NCBI RefSeq assembly: GCF_963921235.1
Contig: NC_086097.1
Coordinates: 102,426,001-102,490,000 of the forward strand
Source of the DNA: Mobula hypostoma
Lineage: Eukaryota
DNA: 64,000 nt
Reading direction: 5' to 3'
Notes under the pieces: model-generated
What the model saw: only the letters and a program-made list of their open reading frames with translations
Database searches by the model: none
Told to the model about the DNA's origin: nothing
Program-made: the position numbers and the translations under genes
Shown here: piece after piece, positions 19,291 through 27,173 of the stretch
Position numbering within the stretch: position 1 is the first letter of the stretch
How the letters are laid out: each line of letters starts with the position of its first letter

Positions 19291-20074
19291 ACGGAGTGGG
19301 TTTCCCCCCAGATTTTCTTCTGTACTATAAAAATGTGTAAGGTGGGAGATTAATTGTTGTAAATTGCCCCTCTGAGTGGTAGAATGTGGGATGAGTTGAA
19401 GTGAATGTGGGAAGAATATGAAAAGGTATTAATGTCAGATCATTGCAAATATTTGGGACAGGGTCAGTAGGTTACAGGGTCTGATTCCATGACCACTGCT
19501 GGCTTTGATTTTTATTTTATTTCATTCATGGGAAGTAAATGTTATTAGCAAAATGATCATTTATTGTCTATTCCCAGTTGCCTGTGAAATGAGGAGGCAG
19601 TTAACTATCAATCATATTATTGATTCTGGAATTATGTGCAGGCCAAACTGGATATATCCTTCTGTGAAGAATATTAGAAAACCTATTTGGCTTTGTACCA
19701 TTCTACCACTTTCATAATTACTGCTACTGATGCATTATTTTAAGTTCCAGATATTATTTATATTCTAGAATGTCAGGCCCCCAGATCCCATTGCAAGTTC
19801 CAAACTATGTTTCTGAACCATTGTTTGAGGACATTGCCTGCTTGATCAATAGCTTAATCTCTGTGCTGCTGTATCCACATGTTAATGAACTAGACTTGGG
19901 CACAATTTCAAAATCTGTAGATATCACAAAACTATACAAATGGTGAGCTGGGGATCTGGTAGAATGGTAACTCACGTGCAAATGAAAATTTACACGATTG
20001 AAAGGAAAGGAAAAATATAATACAAACTACAAGGTCAATCTTAAAAGAATATGAGAAAAGAAACCCAGGGTGCA

Positions 20075-21249
20075 GAATTGAAAATACACGTGGACTAAGA
20101 TGTTAACTGTCCTGTGCTATCACCAGTGGGATCATCAGTTGACCTGCCACCTGTCTTCAGGAGTTTCGGCCCACTTATGATCAAGACTCCCTCAAGGTGG
20201 TGGGCCAGCAGTGCTAAAGCACCATCTCCCACTGGTGAGCTTAAAAACTTGGCATCTGCCTCTATCAGAGTTGTTGGTCGCTACCATTCAACAGATAGTC
20301 TACTCTTCAGGCCTCTATGCAACTACTGAAGGGTTTGCAAAAGATGTATACACTTTCCGACTATCTGCCCCTCTGGACATACTTGGTCCACACCCATGCT
20401 GATCCTTTCTCTGCTGCCTCAGCTACAGACCTGCTGGTTGACTTGATCTCTCTTCTAGTGAAGCCAAGCTCACGCAGCCACTTCTGGAAAGTGAACGCAA
20501 TAAAGCCACGGCAGCCTACTTCGAATGGATAGCATGAGACCTTCCACCCTCTGTCTCTGCACTCTGATCTTAATTCTGCATATTTGGTAACTTGCGCTCA
20601 TGGGCTTCATCGATGTTGTCTTCCCAGGGAACTGAGAGTTCACCAATAACCACTTCTCTACTGGTTTCAGACCGTACAATTATATCTGGACGCAATGTGG
20701 TGAAAGCTATATGCTCCGGGAAACTGCCTTTCCCATCCAGGTCGGCCTTGACACACCAATCATTGGCTGAAGAAAGTAAGCTTGATCGTGAGCCTGCGCT
20801 GTACACCCTTTACTTGGAGCCTTCTTTCACAATCAATATGCAATGTTCTGTGCAGCATGGGGCATGAGATAAGTTGTGCTGCAGTACTCTCTGCTCAACC
20901 ACTTCTGTTACAACTTTGAGAATGTTGTTATGTCTCCAAGTGTACATGCTGCTGGAAAGATTGACTCTGCATGCACTCAAAATGTGTTGAACTGTTCCTT
21001 TCTCGCCACAAGCAGCACACCTGTCTGTCTCATCTTCATACCAGGTGCTGAGGTTGGCAGGTGCTGGGAGCAGATCGTACACTGCTCTGCGTAGAAAAGA
21101 AATGCGGAGCGGTTCCATCTGCCACAGAACATTCCAAGATAGATGTCGTTGTTCAACACTTTCCCACCAGGTCCAAGCCCCTTGTTTGGCCAGGCCAGCT
21201 GTTTTAGCTAACCTCTTCTCCTCTTCTACCTCTCGTATTTCTTGTGTTA
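20075..21249 (-). mobile_element. Hero-clade (R2-group, restriction-like endonuclease) non-LTR retrotransposon, 5'-truncated
   Basis: AVYDLLP.PANL..W; CCHC finger CAAC...HILSAC; YTWRHN; RPDI; ELSVPWE; EVGCRGF; stop at 20361; 3' UTR 20075-20360; 38-39-bp flanking direct repeat. Confidence 0.88.
20126..20200 (-). ncRNA. Candidate hammerhead-like ribozyme with reversed strand connectivity and a kink-turn, in the Hero 3' UTR
   Basis: CCACCU-UGA-GGGAGU-C-UUGAUC-AUAA-GUGGG-CC-GAAA-CUCCU-GAAGAC-AGGUGG-CA-GGUCAA-CUGAUGA-U-CCCAC; four helices pair by inspection; activity untested. Confidence 0.55.
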
Positions 21250-21349
21250 CAATCTTAAAAGAATATGAGAAAGAAACCCAGGGTGCATATAAATCTTTAA
21301 AATTGGTAGGAAGGGTGAGCAGAGCAGTTTAAAATAAAAGGAAATAATA

Positions 21350-21520: not shown

Positions 21521-21689
21521 TATTTTGTTTTCCAGTTTATGAACAGATGTAAACAGTAGAAAGGGTGGAAACTGTGCCCAATCAAACACTGTACACAAAA
21601 CCAGGATACCAAACCCCAGAAATAACATGAAGGCTTTGGAGAGAAAACCACACACGGATTAGTGCTGGAATCCATATGGTTTATTACAT

Positions 21690-22213
21690 GAAGTATAATA
21701 TTTGGAAGGACAAACTCCAAGGCAGAGTACAAAGTAAATGGCAGGTTGGTAGTGTGGAGGAGCAGAGGGATCTCGGGGTATATGTCCACAGATCCCTGAA
21801 AGTTGCCTCACAGGTGGATAGGGTAGTTAAGAAAGCTTATAGGGTGTTAGCTTTCATAAGTCGAAGGATAGAGTTTAAGAGTCGCGATGTAATGATGCAG
21901 CTCTATAAAACTCTGGTTAGGCCACACTTGGAGTACTGTGTCCAGTTCTGGTCACCTCACTATAGGAAGGATGTGGAAGCATTGGAAAGGGTACAGAGGA
22001 GATTTACCAGAATGCTTCCTGGTTTAGAGAGTATGCATTATGATCAGAGATTAAGGGAGCTAGGGCTTTACTCTAGTTTAAGAGACTACCAGACAGGTAT
22101 ATGGAGGAAATTAAGGTGGGGGCTTATATGGGAGGCAGGGTTTGAGGGTCAGCACAACATTGTGGGCTGAAGGGCCTGTAGTGTGCTGTACTATTCTATT
22201 CTATTCTATTCTA
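21690..22213 (+). mobile_element. CR1 LINE 3' fragment with (TATTC)n tail
   Basis: QRDLGVYVH...[20 protein letters not shown]...ERVQRRFTRMLPG. Confidence 0.9.
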
Positions 22214-23490: not shown

Positions 23491-25162
23491 ACAAAAGTAA
23501 TTCAACCAATTATCTGAGGAAAAAGGAATCATTTCTTTTCAGTTATTTTCCACAAAATGTGGACATTGCTTGAAGGACCGATACTGCTTGTTCCTAGCCA
23601 TCTTCCTAAAATTCTACAGAATGTTCCACAGACCTATTAGGAAGGAAGTTTCAGGATTTGACTGAGAAGAAATAGTTGTATTGACTGAGGTCAAGACTAT
23701 ATGTGACTTGGAAGGGAACTTGGAAGTGATGTTCCTTCCTTCTTCTAAGTTGTAGAAGTTGTGCTATAATCCAAATAAAATTGGATTAAAGTTACATAGA
23801 CAGATGGTAGAATCTCGTACTTTCTCCTTATAATACAGTAGGCTGGGAAGAAATTTGATACAAATAGTTTAAAAAGCTTTAAGGTAAATAGAGGGAAACT
23901 GTTTTTAACAGATGAAGGTCAGATAACACAGAACATTACCGCATAGTACAGGCCCTTTGGTCCACATGTTGTGATGACTTTTTAACCTACTCAAAGATCA
24001 ATCTAATCTTTCCCTCCTACATAGAAAAATGGGGAGCTATCATCCATGTGTCTATCTGCCTCTACTACTACCCATCAGGGAGTTCCATGCATCCACTCTG
24101 AGTAAAAAAGCCTAACTCTGACATCTGCCCATACTTTCTTCCAAACATCTTAAAGATAAGCCCCCTCATATTAGCCATTTCATCAAAAGGACTCTGGTTG
24201 TCCATGATCTATGCTTCTAATCATATTGTACACCTCTATCTTCAAAAGTCATGCCCTCTAGTCCAGACAGCACCCCAGCAAATCTCCTCTGCTCCCTGTC
24301 TAAAGCTTCCACATCCTTCTTGCAATAAGGCAACCAGAACTAAACACAATATTCCAAATGTGGTCTAATCAGGGTTTTATAGAGCTGGAACATAACCTTG
24401 CAGCTTTTGAACTCAGTCTCTCAATTAATGAAGACCAACACACTATATGCCTTCGTAACAACCCTATCAACTTATGCGGTAACTTTGACGGATCTATGGA
24501 CATGGATACCAAGATCCCCCTGTTCCTCTATACTTCCAAGAATCCTGTCATTAACCCTGTATTCTGCCTTCTAATTCAACCTGCCAAAATGAATCATTTC
24601 ACACTTTTCTGGGTTGAACTCTATCTGCCACTTCTCAACCCAGCTCTGCATCCTTTCAATGTTCTGCTGCATCCTACAACAACCCTCCACACTTTGCACA
24701 ACTCCACCAACTTCCATGTCATCTGCAAACTTACTAACCCACCTTTCCATTTCCTCAGTCATTTATGTATATAAAAAAAATCACAAAGAGCAGGGGTCCA
24801 GAACAGATCCCCTGGAACACACTGGTCACCGACCTCCAAGCAGAATAAACTCCATCTACAGCCACTCTCTGCCTTCTGTGAGCAGACAAAGCCCGCTCTA
24901 CAGTGTATCCACACAGCCAAGTTTCCCTGGATCTCATACTTCTTAACTTTCTGAATGAGCTGACCACGGGGAACCTTAACACACACCTTACCAAAATCTA
25001 TATACACCAAATCCACTGCTCTACCTTACTTAACGTGCTTTGTCACATTCTCAAAAAATTCAATCAGGGACATTAAAGCATAACCTGCCCCTCACGAAGC
25101 CATCCTGACTATCCATTATCAGACCATGCTTCTCCAAATGCTCATAAATCCTGTCTCTGGAA

Positions 25163-25237
25163 TAGAGGTTCCCAACCTGGGGTCCATAGACCCCTCAGTT
25201 AATGCAAGGGGTCCCAAAAAAAAGTTGGGAACCCCTT
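25163..25237. mobile_element. 75-bp hAT-type MITE
   Basis: TIRs AGAGGTTCCCAAC / GTTGGGAACCCCT; 8-bp TSD CTCTGGAA / CTCTAGAA. Confidence 0.75.
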
Positions 25238-25642
25238 CTCTAGAATCTTGCAATAATTTGCCCACCAATGAAGTAAGACTGACTGGCCTAATTCCCAGGA
25301 TTATCCCTACATCCTTTTTTTTAAAACAAAGGAATAACATTTGCCACTATCGCCAAAGGTGCAGCAATTTCTTCCCTTGCTTCCATTAGTAACCTGGGGC
25401 AAACCCCGTCTGGACCCAGGGACTTATCTATCCTAATGCACATCTTCTTTCTTAACATTGTCATGTTTCAGCATATCAGACTGCTTTACGCTGTCCTTGC
25501 AGACGTCAAGTTCCCCCTCACTGATGAATACTGAAGCAAAGTATTCATTAAATACCTCCACCTACCTCCTCTGACTCTAGCAACATGCTTCTTCTCCTAT
25601 CAGTCCTACCCTTACTCTGGTCATCCTTCCTTTTTTCACATA

Positions 25643-27173
25643 CAGTGGTGCTAGAAAGTTTGTGAACCCCGTAAAATTTTCTCTATTTCTGCACAAATAT
25701 GACCTAAAATGTCATCACATCTTCACACAAGTTCTAAAACGAGATAAAGAAAACCCAACTAAATAAATAACACAAAAAACATTTGTTGAGAAAATTGATC
25801 CAATATTACATGCATTTGCTGGAAAATTTATGTGAACCTTTGCTTTCAGAACCCGGGGTGACCCCCCCCCCCAGCCCGTACATCAATAACTTCAACCAAA
25901 TGTTTCCAGTAACTGTTGATCAGTCCTGCATGTCAGCTTGGAGGAATTTTCGGCCATTCCTTCTTACAAAACTGCTTCAACTCTGGATGTTGGTGGGCTT
26001 CCTTACATGACCTGTTGGGTTCAGGTCCTCCCACAACATTTCTATGGGATTAAGGTCAGGACTTTGACTCAGTCATTCCAAAACACAAACTTTCTTCTTA
26101 AACCATTCTGTTGTTGATTTACTCATCTTTCAGATCATTGTCTTGTTGCATTATCCAACTTCTATTAAACTTCGGGTGACGGACCACTACCCTGACATTC
26201 TCCTGGAAAATGTCTTGAATTTTGAATTCGTTGTGCCCGCAATGATTGCAAGCTGTCCAGGCCCTGAGGCAGCAAAGCAGCACCAAAACATGATGCTCCT
26301 TCCACCATGCTTCACAGATGGGATGAGGTGTTGACGTTGATGTGCAGTGCCCTTTTTCCTCCAAACATAGTGGTGTGTATTTCTGCCAAAAAGTTCAAAT
26401 TTTGTCTCTTCTGTCCACAGAACCTTGTCCCAGAAGCATCATGGAACATCCAGGTTGTCCCCTGCAAACTTGAGATGTGCAGCAATGTTTTTTTTGGAGA
26501 ACAGTGGTTTCCTCTATAGCGTCCTTCCATGAACACCATTCTTGTTCAGTGTTTTTCTTATAGTGGACCCATGAACAGAGAACCCAGCAAGTTCTAGAGA
26601 TTTCTGCAGATCTTTTGCGGTTAACCTTGGGTTCTTTTTCACCTCCTTCAGCATTGCACGTTGTGCTCTTGGTGTGATCTTTACAGAATGCCCACTCATA
26701 AAGAGAGTAGCAACAGTACTGAATTTCCTCCTTTTGTAGACAATTTCTCTTACTGTGGACTGATGGACACTCAGGTCTTTAGAAATGCTCTAGTAGCCTT
26801 TTCCAGCTTCATGTACCTCTACAATTCTTTCTTCTTCTAAGGTTCTCTGAAAGTTGTTTTGATTGAGGTATGGTGCACATAAACAGATCTTTCTTGAGAA
26901 GAGCAGGCTCTGTCAGTAACCTGACTTTGGGTGTCTTTTTTATAGGACAGGGCACCATTGATTGGAACACCTGACTCCAAATAGCTTTTGGAGAAGGCAT
27001 TACCCTAGAGGTTCACATACTGTTTCCCAACAGAAGATTTTGGTGTTATTTATTTAATTTGGTTCTCTTTATCTAGTTTTAGGACTTATGTTAAGATCTG
27101 ATCACACTTTAGGCCATACTTATGTAGAAATAGAGAAAATTCTACCGAGTTCACAAACTTTACAGCACCACTG
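25643..27173 (-). mobile_element. Full-length but decayed Tc1 DNA transposon
   Basis: TA|CAGTGGTGCTAGAAAGTTTGTGAAC ... GTTCACAAACTTTACAGCACCACTG|TA; long TIRs; transposase pieces KKNPRLTAKDLQ...STIRKTL and WIMQQDND. Confidence 0.92.

What the first reader, a model, noticed from the sequence alone, without database searches (positions are those of the whole stretch)
20126..20200. Hammerhead core wired in reverse strand order, with a kink-turn, in the 3' UTR of a Hero LINE
Seen (minus strand): CCACCU UGA GGGAGU C UUGAUC AUAA GUGGG CC GAAA CUCCU GAAGAC AGGUGG CA GGUCAA CUGAUGA U CCCAC. Stem III GGGAGU/ACUCCU abuts GUC and GAAA. Stem I UUGAUC/GGUCAA (6 bp) joins the GUC site to CUGAUGA. Stem II is GUGGG/CCCAC. 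Established: hammerhead types I-III are circular permutations of the order CUGANGA, GAAA, NUH. Here the order is NUH, GAAA, CUGAUGA, which is not a permutation of that order and forces a pseudoknot, with a 4-nt AUAA linker from stem I to stem II (stems known to lie side by side in the active fold). Stem III continues through a consensus k-turn (3-nt GAA bulge, tandem G.A/A.G, then CCACCU/AGGUGG) that could redirect the chain to supply the CUGAUGA strand. Inference: a new hammerhead topology that standard descriptors would miss, possibly processing or presenting the Hero RNA 3' end. I know of HDV-like ribozymes at R2 5' ends but not this. Caveat: the base of stem II is non-canonical (U opposite CC instead of G10.1-C11.1).
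Basis: partly seen in the sequence, partly recalled or inferred. Interest (0 to 1): 0.9.

Follow-up and report, generated by a model that had tools for sequence, protein, structure and literature searches.

The report
Rewired hammerhead domain in LINE tail
The 3' untranslated tail of a jumping gene (a LINE of the R2/Hero type) carries a conserved, knotted RNA domain holding every essential letter of the hammerhead ribozyme in an unusual strand order, so it may be a new form and a new home of this self-cutting RNA, though cutting has not been shown.

Summary
The letters are exactly as reported. Stem I, stem III and the CCACCU/AGGUGG helix are real. The same layout recurs just 3' of the ORF in 27 of 34 testable relatives (27-47% protein identity) and in two further families of this genome, with abundant compensatory changes. 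The only core positions that vary are N7 and H17, and H17 is never G (0 of 29).

Two parts of the reading fail:
- The S-G-C ("reverse") order is already published and validated as the type-SGC hammerhead (Eckert et al. 2023, PMC10085705).
- The proposed stem II (GUGGG/CCCAC) is wrong. Its U is a CpG-decay change of this copy. CCCAC belongs to a 12-bp closing helix (P0) with 20238-20227. The strand before GAAA pairs with an upstream GGCCC (20206-20202).

The domain is therefore about 119 nt (20238-20120). It resembles type-SGC, but the chain is broken between A9 and G10.1 and closed by a new helix. I found no description of that connectivity, or of this LINE context.

Cleavage is untested. 0 of 29 sampled genomic copies begin at the predicted cut. 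I rate it a new variant of a known kind, of high interest if active.

The parts
20120..20238 (-). Whole conserved domain, from the 5' strand of helix P0 to its 3' strand.
   Evidence: z -4.18, 0 of 200 shuffles fold as well. The same architecture was parsed in 29 instances.
20227..20238 (-). P0 5' strand, UCACCAGUGGGA.
   Evidence: Pairs over 12 bp with 20131-20120. A helix of >=9 bp that starts 0-5 nt after A9 is present in 18 of 30 parsed rows. With swapped partners >=9 bp occurs in 4.4%.
20210..20223 (-). Hairpin HP (GGUGC-UUUA-GCACU), between P0 and the 10.x strand.
   Evidence: Predicted in the minimum-energy fold. A hairpin is seen at this place in most lineages by eye and is absent in L052.
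20202..20206 (-). GGCCC, the stem II 10.x strand (G10.1 = 20206).
   Evidence: Pairs with 20172-20168. Compensatory variants occur in relatives, e.g. GAUGA/UCAUC, GUUGA/UCAAC, GGCGC/GCGCC, GUGUCC/GGACAC. 8 of 9 instances with a variant 11.x strand keep >=5 bp, against 34% with swapped partners.
20195..20200 (-).
   Evidence: Pairs with 20152-20147. 6 of 6 pairs show changes on both sides and 90.8% of cells are paired (helix 3).
20192..20194 (-). UGA, the non-bulged strand of the k-turn-like loop. The majority of copies read CGA.
   Evidence: C in 27 of 29 other copies. The N-G-A form recurs in several lineages.
20186..20191 (-). Stem III 16.x strand, GGGAGU (U16.1 = 20186).
   Evidence: Pairs with 20164-20159. 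Own-partner mean 5.55 bp against 2.66 with swapped partners. 5 of 6 pairs change on both sides.
20185..20185 (-). C17. Predicted cleavage is 3' of this base, between 20185 and 20184.
   Evidence: By position in the core. H17 is A 14, C 9, U 6, G 0 in 29 instances. Cleavage itself is not tested.
20179..20184 (-). Stem I 1.x strand, UUGAUC.
   Evidence: Pairs with 20144-20139. Own-partner mean 5.62 bp against 0.60 with swapped partners; >=5 bp in 25 of 29 against 2%. 5 of 6 pairs change on both sides in an alignment that was not fitted to this helix.
20173..20178 (-). Linker AUAAGU, from stem I to stem II. U20173 is C in most copies.
   Evidence: C in 21 of 29 copies; 94% of depth in X19. The linker is 1-8 nt in relatives.
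20168..20172 (-). GGGCC, the stem II 11.x strand (C11.1 = 20168).
   Evidence: Abuts G12. GGGCC or AGGCC in 20 of 29 instances; the variants covary with the upstream strand.
20164..20167 (-). G12 A13 A14 A15.1 (GAAA).
   Evidence: GAAA in 28 of 29 instances.
20159..20163 (-). Stem III 15.x strand, CUCCU.
20153..20158 (-). GAAGAC, the bulged strand of the k-turn-like loop (GAA bulge, G.A/A.G, C).
   Evidence: Sequence fit. The NNN-GA-N form is clear in 6 of 17 lineages and ambiguous in 2 more, by my reading.
20147..20152 (-). Helix X 3' strand, AGGUGG.
   Evidence: helix 3.
20139..20144 (-). Stem I 2.x strand, GGUCAA. All other copies read GAUCAA.
   Evidence: A in 29 of 29 other copies; 402,019 of 403,999 depth in X19.
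20132..20138 (-). C3-A9, CUGAUGA.
   Evidence: CUGANGA in 28 of 29 instances. N7 is U 15, A 6, C 4, G 3.
20120..20131 (-). P0 3' strand, UCCCACUGGUGA.
20074..20119 (-). 3'-terminal tail of the element, with hairpin GGAC...GUCC at 20112-20092. The element ends near 20074.
   Evidence: Homology among copies stops at about query position 347. A similar terminal motif is seen in L037, L057, L064, L066 and L078 by eye.
20361..20363 (-). Stop codon (TAG) of the LINE ORF. The domain starts 123 nt further 3'.

Best explanation
The site is part of a conserved, multiply pseudoknotted RNA domain of about 119 nt in the 3'UTR of a LINE that has a reverse transcriptase and a C-terminal restriction-like endonuclease (R2 superfamily, possibly Hero).

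Shown:
- The order along the RNA is: P0 5' strand; hairpin HP; 10.x strand (GGCCC); helix X 5' strand; NGA; 16.x strand with U and H17; 1.x strand; short linker; 11.x strand (GGGCC); GAAA; 15.x strand; loop; helix X 3' strand; 2.x strand; CUGANGA; P0 3' strand.
- All hammerhead core letters are invariant across lineages except N7 and H17, and H17 is never G.
- Stems I and III, helix X and P0 covary. Stem II covaries where its sequence differs.

Inferred:
- The RNA folds into a hammerhead active site with type-SGC-like wiring. Helix X is the counterpart of the helix that ties the distal ends of stems I and II in type-SGC.
- The chain is interrupted between A9 and G10.1. A junction with P0 and HP sits there, so both ends of the domain enter at the core.
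- The k-turn-like loop, or a bulge in other lineages, gives the sharp bend between stem III and helix X.

Most likely mechanism (inferred, untested): Mg2+-dependent self-cleavage 3' of C20185. This would separate the coding part from the 3'-terminal module of about 111 nt. Retrotransposition uses uncleaved RNA, so cleavage would act as a regulated or attenuating step, perhaps suppressed or controlled by the element's protein.
For: Observation and chance control:
- Letters confirmed.
- The descriptor hit the window once; 0 of 300 shuffles reached >=5,5,5 bp.

Recurrence in relatives:
- Descriptor hits in the 3' flank of 13 of 80 relatives' loci.
- A covariance model found 33 matches at E<=1 over the window plus 80 loci, all on the ORF-sense strand and 3' of the ORF.
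- The domain is present in 27 of 34 loci with >=34% identity, a complete C-terminus and >=250 nt of flank, and in 0 of 9 below 34%.
- Two more conforming families occur in this genome. The pattern gave 56 hits against 1 for the reversed control.

Covariation:
- 82.0% of cells paired against 62.1% shuffled; 127 against 44 cells changed on both sides; score 0.363 against 0.135, each reached by 0 of 500 shuffles. Slid controls gave 0.06-0.12.
- Swapped-partner controls for stem I, stem III and P0 and for stem II.

Core:
- GAAA in 28 of 29 and CUGANGA in 28 of 29 instances. N7 takes all four letters. H17 is A14/C9/U6/G0.

Folding:
- Full-domain folds give z -3.3 to -4.8 in 8 of 11 sequences.

Precedent:
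- Type-SGC hammerheads with the same S-G-C order and a fourth helix cleave at the predicted site. All four helices were verified there by compensatory mutants (PMC10085705, section 14).
Against: - No cleavage data. All 24 runs found were kept as contigs, which cannot show RNA ends.
- 29 of 29 sampled genomic copies extend 5' of the predicted cut. The nearest 5' end lies 20 nt upstream and none starts at U1.1. So the template is uncleaved RNA, and 3' cleavage fragments are not detectably retrotransposed.
- The break between A9 and G10.1 violates the block continuity seen in all described hammerheads (PMC10085705, section 13). Its effect on catalysis is unknown.
- Cutting 111 nt from the 3' end has no obvious benefit for the element.
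- Support for stem II is weaker than for the other helices. Its sequence is mostly conserved, and swapped-partner controls still reach >=5 bp in 34-45%.
- 7 of 34 closer relatives lack the domain; one of these, L055, is a decayed copy.
- Lineage grouping, the HP hairpin and the k-turn counts rest on my reading of parsed tables, not on a statistical test.
Confidence: 0.55

Rival explanations
1. The structure is as described but it does not act as a ribozyme in the cell. The hammerhead-like fold would serve as a compact platform that the element's reverse transcriptase recognises to start target-primed reverse transcription, or as a stabiliser of a non-polyadenylated 3' end. The core letters would be kept for folding and protein contacts.
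For: - In R2 elements the protein recognises a structured, in R2Tg pseudoknotted, 3'UTR element that is necessary and sufficient for TPRT (PMC12222951, passages).
- All sampled copies carry the intact domain and none starts at the cut.
- In a Penelope-like element, hammerhead cleavage was not needed for insertion in vitro, and no reads ended at the site (PMC11167929, passages).
- G at position 17 could also be excluded for folding reasons alone.
Against: - The pattern of free positions (N7, H17 not G) against invariant ones matches catalytic constraints position by position.
- An intact hammerhead core would be expected to cleave unless restrained.
- A separate conserved terminal hairpin lies nearer the 3' end and could be the priming signal.
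- Contigs of runs X1 and X3 suggest that another abundant family shares only the tail from position 15.2 onward, so it would work without the S and G blocks. This is weak: it rests on contigs and on unknown organisms.
Confidence: 0.35
2. One reading: a self-contained 75-nt type-SGC hammerhead at 20200-20126, with stem II formed by GUGGG (20174-20170) and CCCAC (20130-20126) and a non-canonical U/CC base.
For: - The pairing exists in the window copy. It also exists in 5 of 29 other copies that carry the same T (L006, L008, L009, L015, L018).
- L053 can form AAAGGG/CCCUUU.
Against: - The U is C in 21 of 29 copies and in 94% of depth in X19.
- Own-partner pairing is no better than swapped-partner pairing (mean 2.90 vs 2.58 bp; >=5 bp in 3 of 29 against 11.5%).
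- CCCAC is part of the 12-bp helix P0.
- The 106-nt stretch around it folds no better than shuffles.
Confidence: 0.03
3. Chance resemblance: hammerhead-like words in an otherwise ordinary or unstructured 3'UTR.
For: - The scan covers very many windows, and a reader is free to notice any motif.
- 17 of 300 shuffled windows gave a loose hit at >=4,4,4 bp.
Against: Recurrence with compensatory changes in many divergent lineages, always at the same place and on the same strand.
Confidence: 0.02

Closest known systems
Type-SGC hammerhead ribozymes (HRIMA-1 motif and type-SGC variants; Eckert, Friedrich, Weinberg and Weinberg, NAR 2023, PMC10085705)
   Same: - Block order: site, then GAAA, then CUGAnGA.
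- A short linker from stem I (1.x) straight into stem II (11.x).
- Stems I and II of about 5-6 bp.
[quoted passage not shown]
- At least two pseudoknots in the core.
- Missed by the classic type I, II and III descriptors.
   Different: - In type-SGC the 10.x strand and the 3' strand of the fourth helix follow CUGAnGA. Here both lie 5' of the site block, so block C is split between A9 and G10.1.
- A long helix (P0), usually with a hairpin, closes the domain at that point.
- Helix X and stem III are joined on both strands by an internal loop.
- Type-SGC RNAs were found in soil, spruce, sludge and freshwater metatranscriptomes (RNA) beside hairpin ribozymes (Supplementary Table 2). This domain is in animal genomic DNA, inside a LINE.
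- Type-SGC cleavage is proven. Cleavage here is untested.
Classic type I, II and III hammerheads (Rfam hammerhead families)
   Same: Identical core letters and the same free positions; A15.1-U16.1; G10.1-C11.1; three helices around the core.
   Different: The strand order is not a circular permutation of theirs. No Rfam family matched at E<=10 in the window stretch or at E<=5 in 12 relatives.
Minimal hammerheads of Penelope-like elements and retrozymes (PMC4209133, PMC7229834: search listing and abstracts only; PMC11167929: passages)
   Same: A hammerhead core carried by a retroelement, in untranslated or terminal parts, with an unclear role in transposition.
   Different: Those are type I, often lack stem III and act as dimers. 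Their host elements have a GIY-YIG endonuclease and terminal repeats. Here the host is a LINE with a restriction-like endonuclease, and the wiring is different.
Pseudoknotted 3'UTR element of R2 recognised by the R2 protein (R2Tg, PMC12222951, passages)
   Same: A structured, pseudoknotted RNA in the 3'UTR of a LINE with a restriction-like endonuclease, close to the 3' end.
   Different: No hammerhead core is reported there. That element is the 3'-most 67 nt. Here a further 46 nt with its own hairpin follow the domain.
Kink-turn (Kt-7 type; consensus recalled from memory, not from a call)
   Same: In this lineage: C-stem (stem III), 3-nt bulge GAA, tandem G.A/A.G, then NC-stem (helix X).
   Different: Not conserved in all lineages. 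Several have a plain bulge or A.A in place of G.A. Neither kinking nor protein binding was tested.

Membership tests
Hammerhead ribozyme (catalytic core) | CUGANGA box (C3-A9) directly 3' of the stem I 2.x strand | tested here: met
   Window 20138-20132. 28 of 29 parsed instances; N7 takes all four letters.
Hammerhead ribozyme (catalytic core) | G12 A13 A14 followed by the A15.1-U16.1 pair that opens stem III | tested here: met
   GAAA in 28 of 29 instances. Stem III counted from U16.1-A15.1 has mean 5.55 bp.
Hammerhead ribozyme (catalytic core) | Cleavage-site triplet NUH, with H never G | tested here: met
   H17 is A14/C9/U6/G0 in 29 instances. 13 of these were first found with a descriptor that excluded G. 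The other 16 were placed without that filter and none has G.
Hammerhead ribozyme (catalytic core) | Stems I, II and III abut the core and covary | tested here: met
   Stems I and III are strongly supported. Stem II, with the upstream strand, is conserved with G10.1-C11.1; 8 of 9 variant instances are compensated.
Hammerhead ribozyme (catalytic core) | A9 is joined directly, or with 1-2 extra nucleotides, to G10.1 | tested here: not met
   A9 runs into helix P0. G10.1 comes from a strand about 70 nt upstream.
Hammerhead ribozyme (catalytic core) | Site-specific Mg2+-dependent self-cleavage 3' of H17 | not testable with these tools
   No raw RNA reads were available. 0 of 29 genomic copies start at the site.
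Type-SGC hammerhead (Eckert et al. 2023) | Block order S, G, C | tested here: met
Type-SGC hammerhead (Eckert et al. 2023) | Short linker from the 1.x strand to the 11.x strand, and a helix joining the other sides of stems I and II | tested here: met
   The linker is 1-8 nt. Helix X lies directly 5' of the 2.x strand and directly 3' of the 10.x strand. Compared with section 13 and one alignment row of the supplement.
Type-SGC hammerhead (Eckert et al. 2023) | Block C uninterrupted: the 10.x strand directly 3' of CUGAnGA | tested here: not met
   Pairing with the downstream strand shows no support. The 10.x strand lies upstream.
Kink-turn | C-stem, 3-nt bulge, tandem sheared G.A/A.G, NC-stem | tested here: inconclusive
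   The window fits by sequence. The form is clear in 6 of 17 lineages, ambiguous in 2 more and absent in the rest, by my reading. Geometry and protein binding are not testable here.
Hero clade of non-LTR retrotransposons | Single ORF with a reverse transcriptase and a C-terminal restriction-like endonuclease | tested here: met
   - C-terminal 434 aa of copy L024: zf-RVT at E 1.8e-4, below the cut-off.
- A PD...E.K-like stretch (RPDIIVWSD...ELTVPWE) is seen in the translation.
- Full-length homologues of about 1000-1100 aa carry RVT_1 and zf-RVT.
Hero clade of non-LTR retrotransposons | Placement inside the Hero clade in a reverse-transcriptase phylogeny with reference elements | not tested
   No Repbase or Dfam references were at hand. 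Named homologues are 'uncharacterized', and one is labelled R2.

The most novel reading that the evidence does not exclude
This is an active hammerhead of a topology not yet described. It would be a circular permutant of type-SGC in which block C is split at A9|G10.1 by a multi-helix junction (P0, HP, stem II), so the RNA enters and leaves the ribozyme through its catalytic core.

It would also be the first non-circularly permuted hammerhead encoded in animal genomes. It has been kept for a long time in the 3'UTR of a clade of LINEs with a restriction-like endonuclease, where protein-controlled cleavage, or cleavage and re-ligation, would gate whether an RNA serves as template.

Probability: 0.45. 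Interest if true: 0.85.

Novelty: new variant of a known kind. Interest (0 to 1): 0.75.

Why it matters
- If the domain cleaves, the rule that hammerhead blocks cannot be interrupted falls. The catalogue of hammerhead topologies gains a form that current descriptors and Rfam models miss.
- Non-circular permutation would move from environmental RNA replicons into animal genomes.
- For transposon biology it would be the first ribozyme-like domain in the 3'UTR of an R2-superfamily LINE. HDV-like ribozymes are known at the 5' ends.
- It gives a directly testable handle on how such elements handle their RNA 3' region.
- Even if it is not catalytic, it is a well-defined, covarying 3'UTR domain and a candidate protein-recognition element for a poorly studied LINE clade.

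Tried and rejected
- Rfam at permissive thresholds, on the window stretch and on 12 relatives: no hammerhead or other ribozyme match.
- Runs for RNA evidence: all 24 listed were kept as contigs. Four were laid (X1, X3, X14, X19). They gave majority letters but cannot show RNA ends or prove transcription. No place where molecules begin or end was reported.
A pattern search was used instead. About half of its 56 hits belong to an unrelated repeat that does not conform.
- The MAFFT alignment A2 and the model-fitted A3 misplace some rows, in lineages with short linkers. The tool count is therefore conservative. Per-position counts were made with anchored parsing in scripts.
- L067 (mis-parsed), L032 and L074 (cut by contig ends) and a second weak hit in L066 were dropped before the counts.
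- The close relatives P0002, P0003 and P0005 (57-63% identity) were not recovered as DNA by the metagenome scan.
- Earlier findings of this scan: none for this sequence or these words together. The hits for 'hammerhead retrotransposon' all concern Penelope-like elements.
- Literature searches that found no prior description of this LINE context:
  - hammerhead + Hero + retrotransposon + ribozyme: 0 papers.
  - hammerhead + restriction-like endonuclease + retrotransposon: 1 unrelated paper.
  - 'type-SGC': only the 2023 paper.
  - non-circular permutation + hammerhead: 8 papers, none on LINEs by title or abstract.
  - Two further searches: 0 papers. Their '3 UTR' term may not match the printed form.
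- Subscription-only papers and Repbase or Dfam notes were not searchable.
Full report
**Observation.** In hammerhead numbering:

| Element | Window coordinates (minus strand) |
|---|---|
| C17 | 20185 |
| G12-A15.1 (GAAA) | 20167-20164 |
| C3-A9 (CUGAUGA) | 20138-20132 |
| Stem III | 20191-20186 with 20164-20159 |
| Stem I | 20184-20179 with 20144-20139 |
| Outer helix CCACCU/AGGUGG | 20200-20195 with 20152-20147 |

- A descriptor for this strand order, with stems forced to abut the core, finds this one site in the window.
- In 300 dinucleotide-preserving shuffles of the window, 17 had a hit at >=4,4,4 bp, 2 at >=5,5,4 and 0 at >=5,5,5.
- That is suggestive only, because the scan is huge and the motif was noticed after the fact.
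- Rfam at E<=10 reports no ribozyme here.

**The host element.**
- The site lies in a very abundant repeat. The genome has 3.48 Gb; a first look gave 1751 candidates, and the 40 scored matches are about 95-96% identical.
- Homology among copies ends near 20074. The ORF stops at 20363-20361, so the motif sits in a 3'UTR of about 290 nt.
- The C-terminal 434 residues of one copy (L024) show a sub-threshold zf-RVT match and a PD...E.K-like stretch.
- Their full-length homologues are proteins of about 1000-1100 aa with RVT_1 and zf-RVT, from lancelets, fishes and molluscs.
- This is a LINE with a restriction-like endonuclease, of the R2 superfamily. 'Hero' is plausible but could not be tested, because no clade references were available.

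**The window copy differs from its family inside the motif.** Among 29 other copies:

| Position | Window | Other copies | Effect |
|---|---|---|---|
| 20143 | G | A in 29 of 29 | Stem I becomes a perfect UUGAUC/GAUCAA |
| 20194 | U | C in 27 of 29 | UGA becomes CGA |
| 20173 | U | C in 21 of 29 | CpG site; GUGGG becomes GCGGG |

Contigs of run X19 agree: 402,019 of 403,999 depth, 262,056 of 270,569, and 212,391 of 226,411 for the three positions in the order listed.

**Relatives.**
- A scan of metagenome contigs with a protein alignment returned 80 loci that encode relatives at 27-65% identity.
- The descriptor hit the 3' flank of 13 of them, with stems of different sequence.
- A covariance model built from these gave 33 matches at E<=1 over the window and 80 loci. 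All are on the ORF-sense strand and 3' of the ORF.
- Two more were found by the descriptor (L054, L070).
- Among loci that reach the protein's C-terminus and hold >=250 nt of flank, 27 of 34 with >=34% identity have the domain. One of the 7 without it, L055, is a visibly decayed copy. Below 34% identity, 0 of 9 have it.
- In this genome the pattern GGCCGAAACAC-N(18-32)-CTGANGA occurs 56 times, against once for the reversed control.
- The 30 loci fetched include two further families that conform fully, and one unrelated repeat that does not.

**Architecture.** Parsing 29 instances gave one layout. Four rows were dropped first: L067 mis-parsed, L032 and L074 cut by contig ends, and a second weak hit in L066. 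From 5' to 3' the layout is:

1. P0 5' strand
2. Hairpin HP
3. 10.x strand (mostly GGCCC)
4. Helix X 5' strand
5. NGA
6. 16.x strand, U, H17
7. 1.x strand
8. Linker of 1-8 nt
9. 11.x strand (mostly GGGCC)
10. GAAA
11. 15.x strand
12. Loop
13. Helix X 3' strand
14. 2.x strand
15. CUGANGA
16. P0 3' strand

- P0 starts 0-5 nt after A9 and has >=9 consecutive pairs in 18 of 30 rows.
- In the window P0 is UCACCAGUGGGA (20238-20227) with UCCCACUGGUGA (20131-20120).
- The full domain folds with z between -3.3 and -4.8 in 8 of 11 sequences tested. The other three gave -1.85, -1.93 and -0.81.

**Covariation.** The tool count used alignment A3, which was fitted only to helix X and stem III and misplaces some rows.

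| Measure | Observed | Shuffled | Shuffles reaching observed |
|---|---|---|---|
| Cells paired | 82.0% | 62.1% | 0 of 500 |
| Cells changed on both sides | 127 | 44 | 0 of 500 |
| Covariation score | 0.363 | 0.135 | 0 of 500 |

- Slid partners gave scores of 0.06-0.12.
- Stem I, to which the alignment was not fitted, has 5 of 6 pairs with changes on both sides.

In anchored counts each strand was also paired with the partner strand from another lineage as a control. The lineages, 15 groups, were assigned by eye.

| Helix | Own partner | Swapped partner |
|---|---|---|
| Stem I | mean 5.62 bp; >=5 bp in 25 of 29 | mean 0.60 bp; >=5 bp in 2% |
| Stem III | mean 5.55 bp | mean 2.66 bp |
| P0 | >=9 bp in 13 of 29 | >=9 bp in 4.4% |

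- Stem II is mostly conserved in sequence, so it is less informative.
- In 9 instances with a different 11.x strand, 8 keep >=5 bp with an upstream strand, against 34% in controls.
- The first pair is G-C throughout, or G-U in two instances.

**Core.**
- GAAA is present in 28 of 29 instances and CUGANGA in 28 of 29. The one exception for both is L084, a single copy that looks decayed.
- N7 is U, A, C or G. H17 is A 14, C 9, U 6 and never G.
- These are exactly the positions known to be free in hammerheads, by established knowledge of the family.

**What is known.**
- Eckert et al. (NAR 2023, PMC10085705; sections 13, 14, 15 and 18 and parts of the supplement read) describe 'type-SGC' hammerheads.
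- These have the order site, GAAA, CUGAnGA, a linker of about 3 nt from stem I into stem II, and a fourth helix that binds the other sides of stems I and II.
- Cleavage occurred at the predicted site, and all four helices were confirmed by compensatory mutants.
- Those RNAs come from metatranscriptomes of soil, spruce, sludge and freshwater, beside hairpin ribozymes. No retrotransposon context is mentioned in the main text ('retrotranspos' occurs only in a reference).
- The paper assumes that each block is uninterrupted, with 10.x directly after CUGAnGA. Here that is not met. The 10.x strand and the strand of helix X that follows it lie at the 5' side, A9 runs into P0, and P0 and HP lead into G10.1.
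- Read this way, the domain is type-SGC with its natural ends joined by the NGA loop and reopened inside the core, closed by a new helix. This equivalence is my inference from the paper's text and one alignment row.
- In two lineages (L058; L031, L047 and L059) a G directly after A9 may supply 10.1, as if the junction had moved by one pair (by eye).

**K-turn.**
- In the window, stem III, GAA, G-A, C and helix X on one strand face helix X, U, G-A and stem III on the other. This fits the k-turn consensus, which I recall from memory.
- The N-GA / NNN-GA-N form is clear in 6 of 17 lineages and ambiguous in 2 more. The others have a plain bulge or A-A (by eye).
- A sharp bend there is what the wiring needs. 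[quoted passage not shown]

**Function.**
- Cleavage was not testable. All 24 runs offered were kept as contigs. The four laid show no molecule ends.
- The genome gives one test. If the 111-nt 3' product were made and copied, insertions should start at U20184.
- A search with only those 111 nt gave 1522 first-look candidates. All 29 other copies fetched extend further 5'; the nearest 5' ends are 20 and 74 nt upstream.
- So the template is uncleaved RNA, and 3' products are not detectably retrotransposed.
- This fits regulated or inefficient cleavage, and it fits a non-catalytic platform equally well.
- By analogy, R2 proteins recognise structured 3'UTR elements (PMC12222951). In a Penelope-like element, hammerhead cleavage was dispensable for insertion in vitro (PMC11167929).
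- I favour a working ribozyme (0.55) because the pattern of invariant and free core positions is the catalytic one. I hold the platform reading at 0.35.

**Verdict.**
- What remains new, as far as my searches reach, is the connectivity and the LINE context.

Noticed in passing
window 20092-20112 (-); also L037, L057, L064, L066, L078: A terminal hairpin GGAC-AGUUAACAUCUUA-GUCC followed by GUGU and a U-run lies just before the element's 3' end. Similar letters (GGACAG..AACAUC..GUCC-GUGU) recur near the 3' ends of several relatives, at varying distance from the hammerhead-like domain. It may be the priming or recognition signal.
   Followed up: partly
L053, L068, L073, L039, L064, L066, L057, L043; own-genome family S1 (for example L144): The loop of hairpin HP often holds the palindrome UGAUCA (CUGAUCAC and the like). 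A palindromic loop could let two RNAs kiss. The window's family has a short UUUA loop instead.
   Followed up: no
window 20099-20163: - In contigs of runs X1 and X3 the summed depth over this stretch is about 30-50 times that of the part upstream. Loose ends lie at 20163, and a variant at 20119/20120 dominates.
- In X19 the depth is nearly flat.
- Another abundant family in those organisms may share only the tail from position 15.2 onward.
   Followed up: no
L142, L145-L147, L150-L153, L155-L157, L163, L169 (own genome): A different repeat carries GUUUC-GGGCC-GAAAC, an A-run and CUGAGGA. It matched the search pattern but lacks stems I and III of the domain.
   Followed up: partly
L058; L031, L047, L059: In these lineages a G follows A9 before P0 begins, and the upstream strand is one base shorter, as if the junction at the base of stem II had shifted by one pair.
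   Followed up: no
window 20810-21328 (-) and 20364-20600 (-): The window's copy is broken. Its last open frame is 78 codons, and a 172-codon piece in another frame lies further upstream. Homology to a longer copy starts about 1180 nt before the 3' end.
   Followed up: partly
window 25153-25247 (-): A sub-threshold Rfam match to mir-329 (27.1 bits, E 0.023, gathering score 76.8). It is a long hairpin with a U-run and is probably repeat-derived.
   Followed up: no
window 26068-26789 (-) and 21631-22170 (+): Open frames that look like remnants of other mobile elements: a Tc1/mariner-like transposase and a reverse-transcriptase piece, judged by eye from the translations.
   Followed up: no
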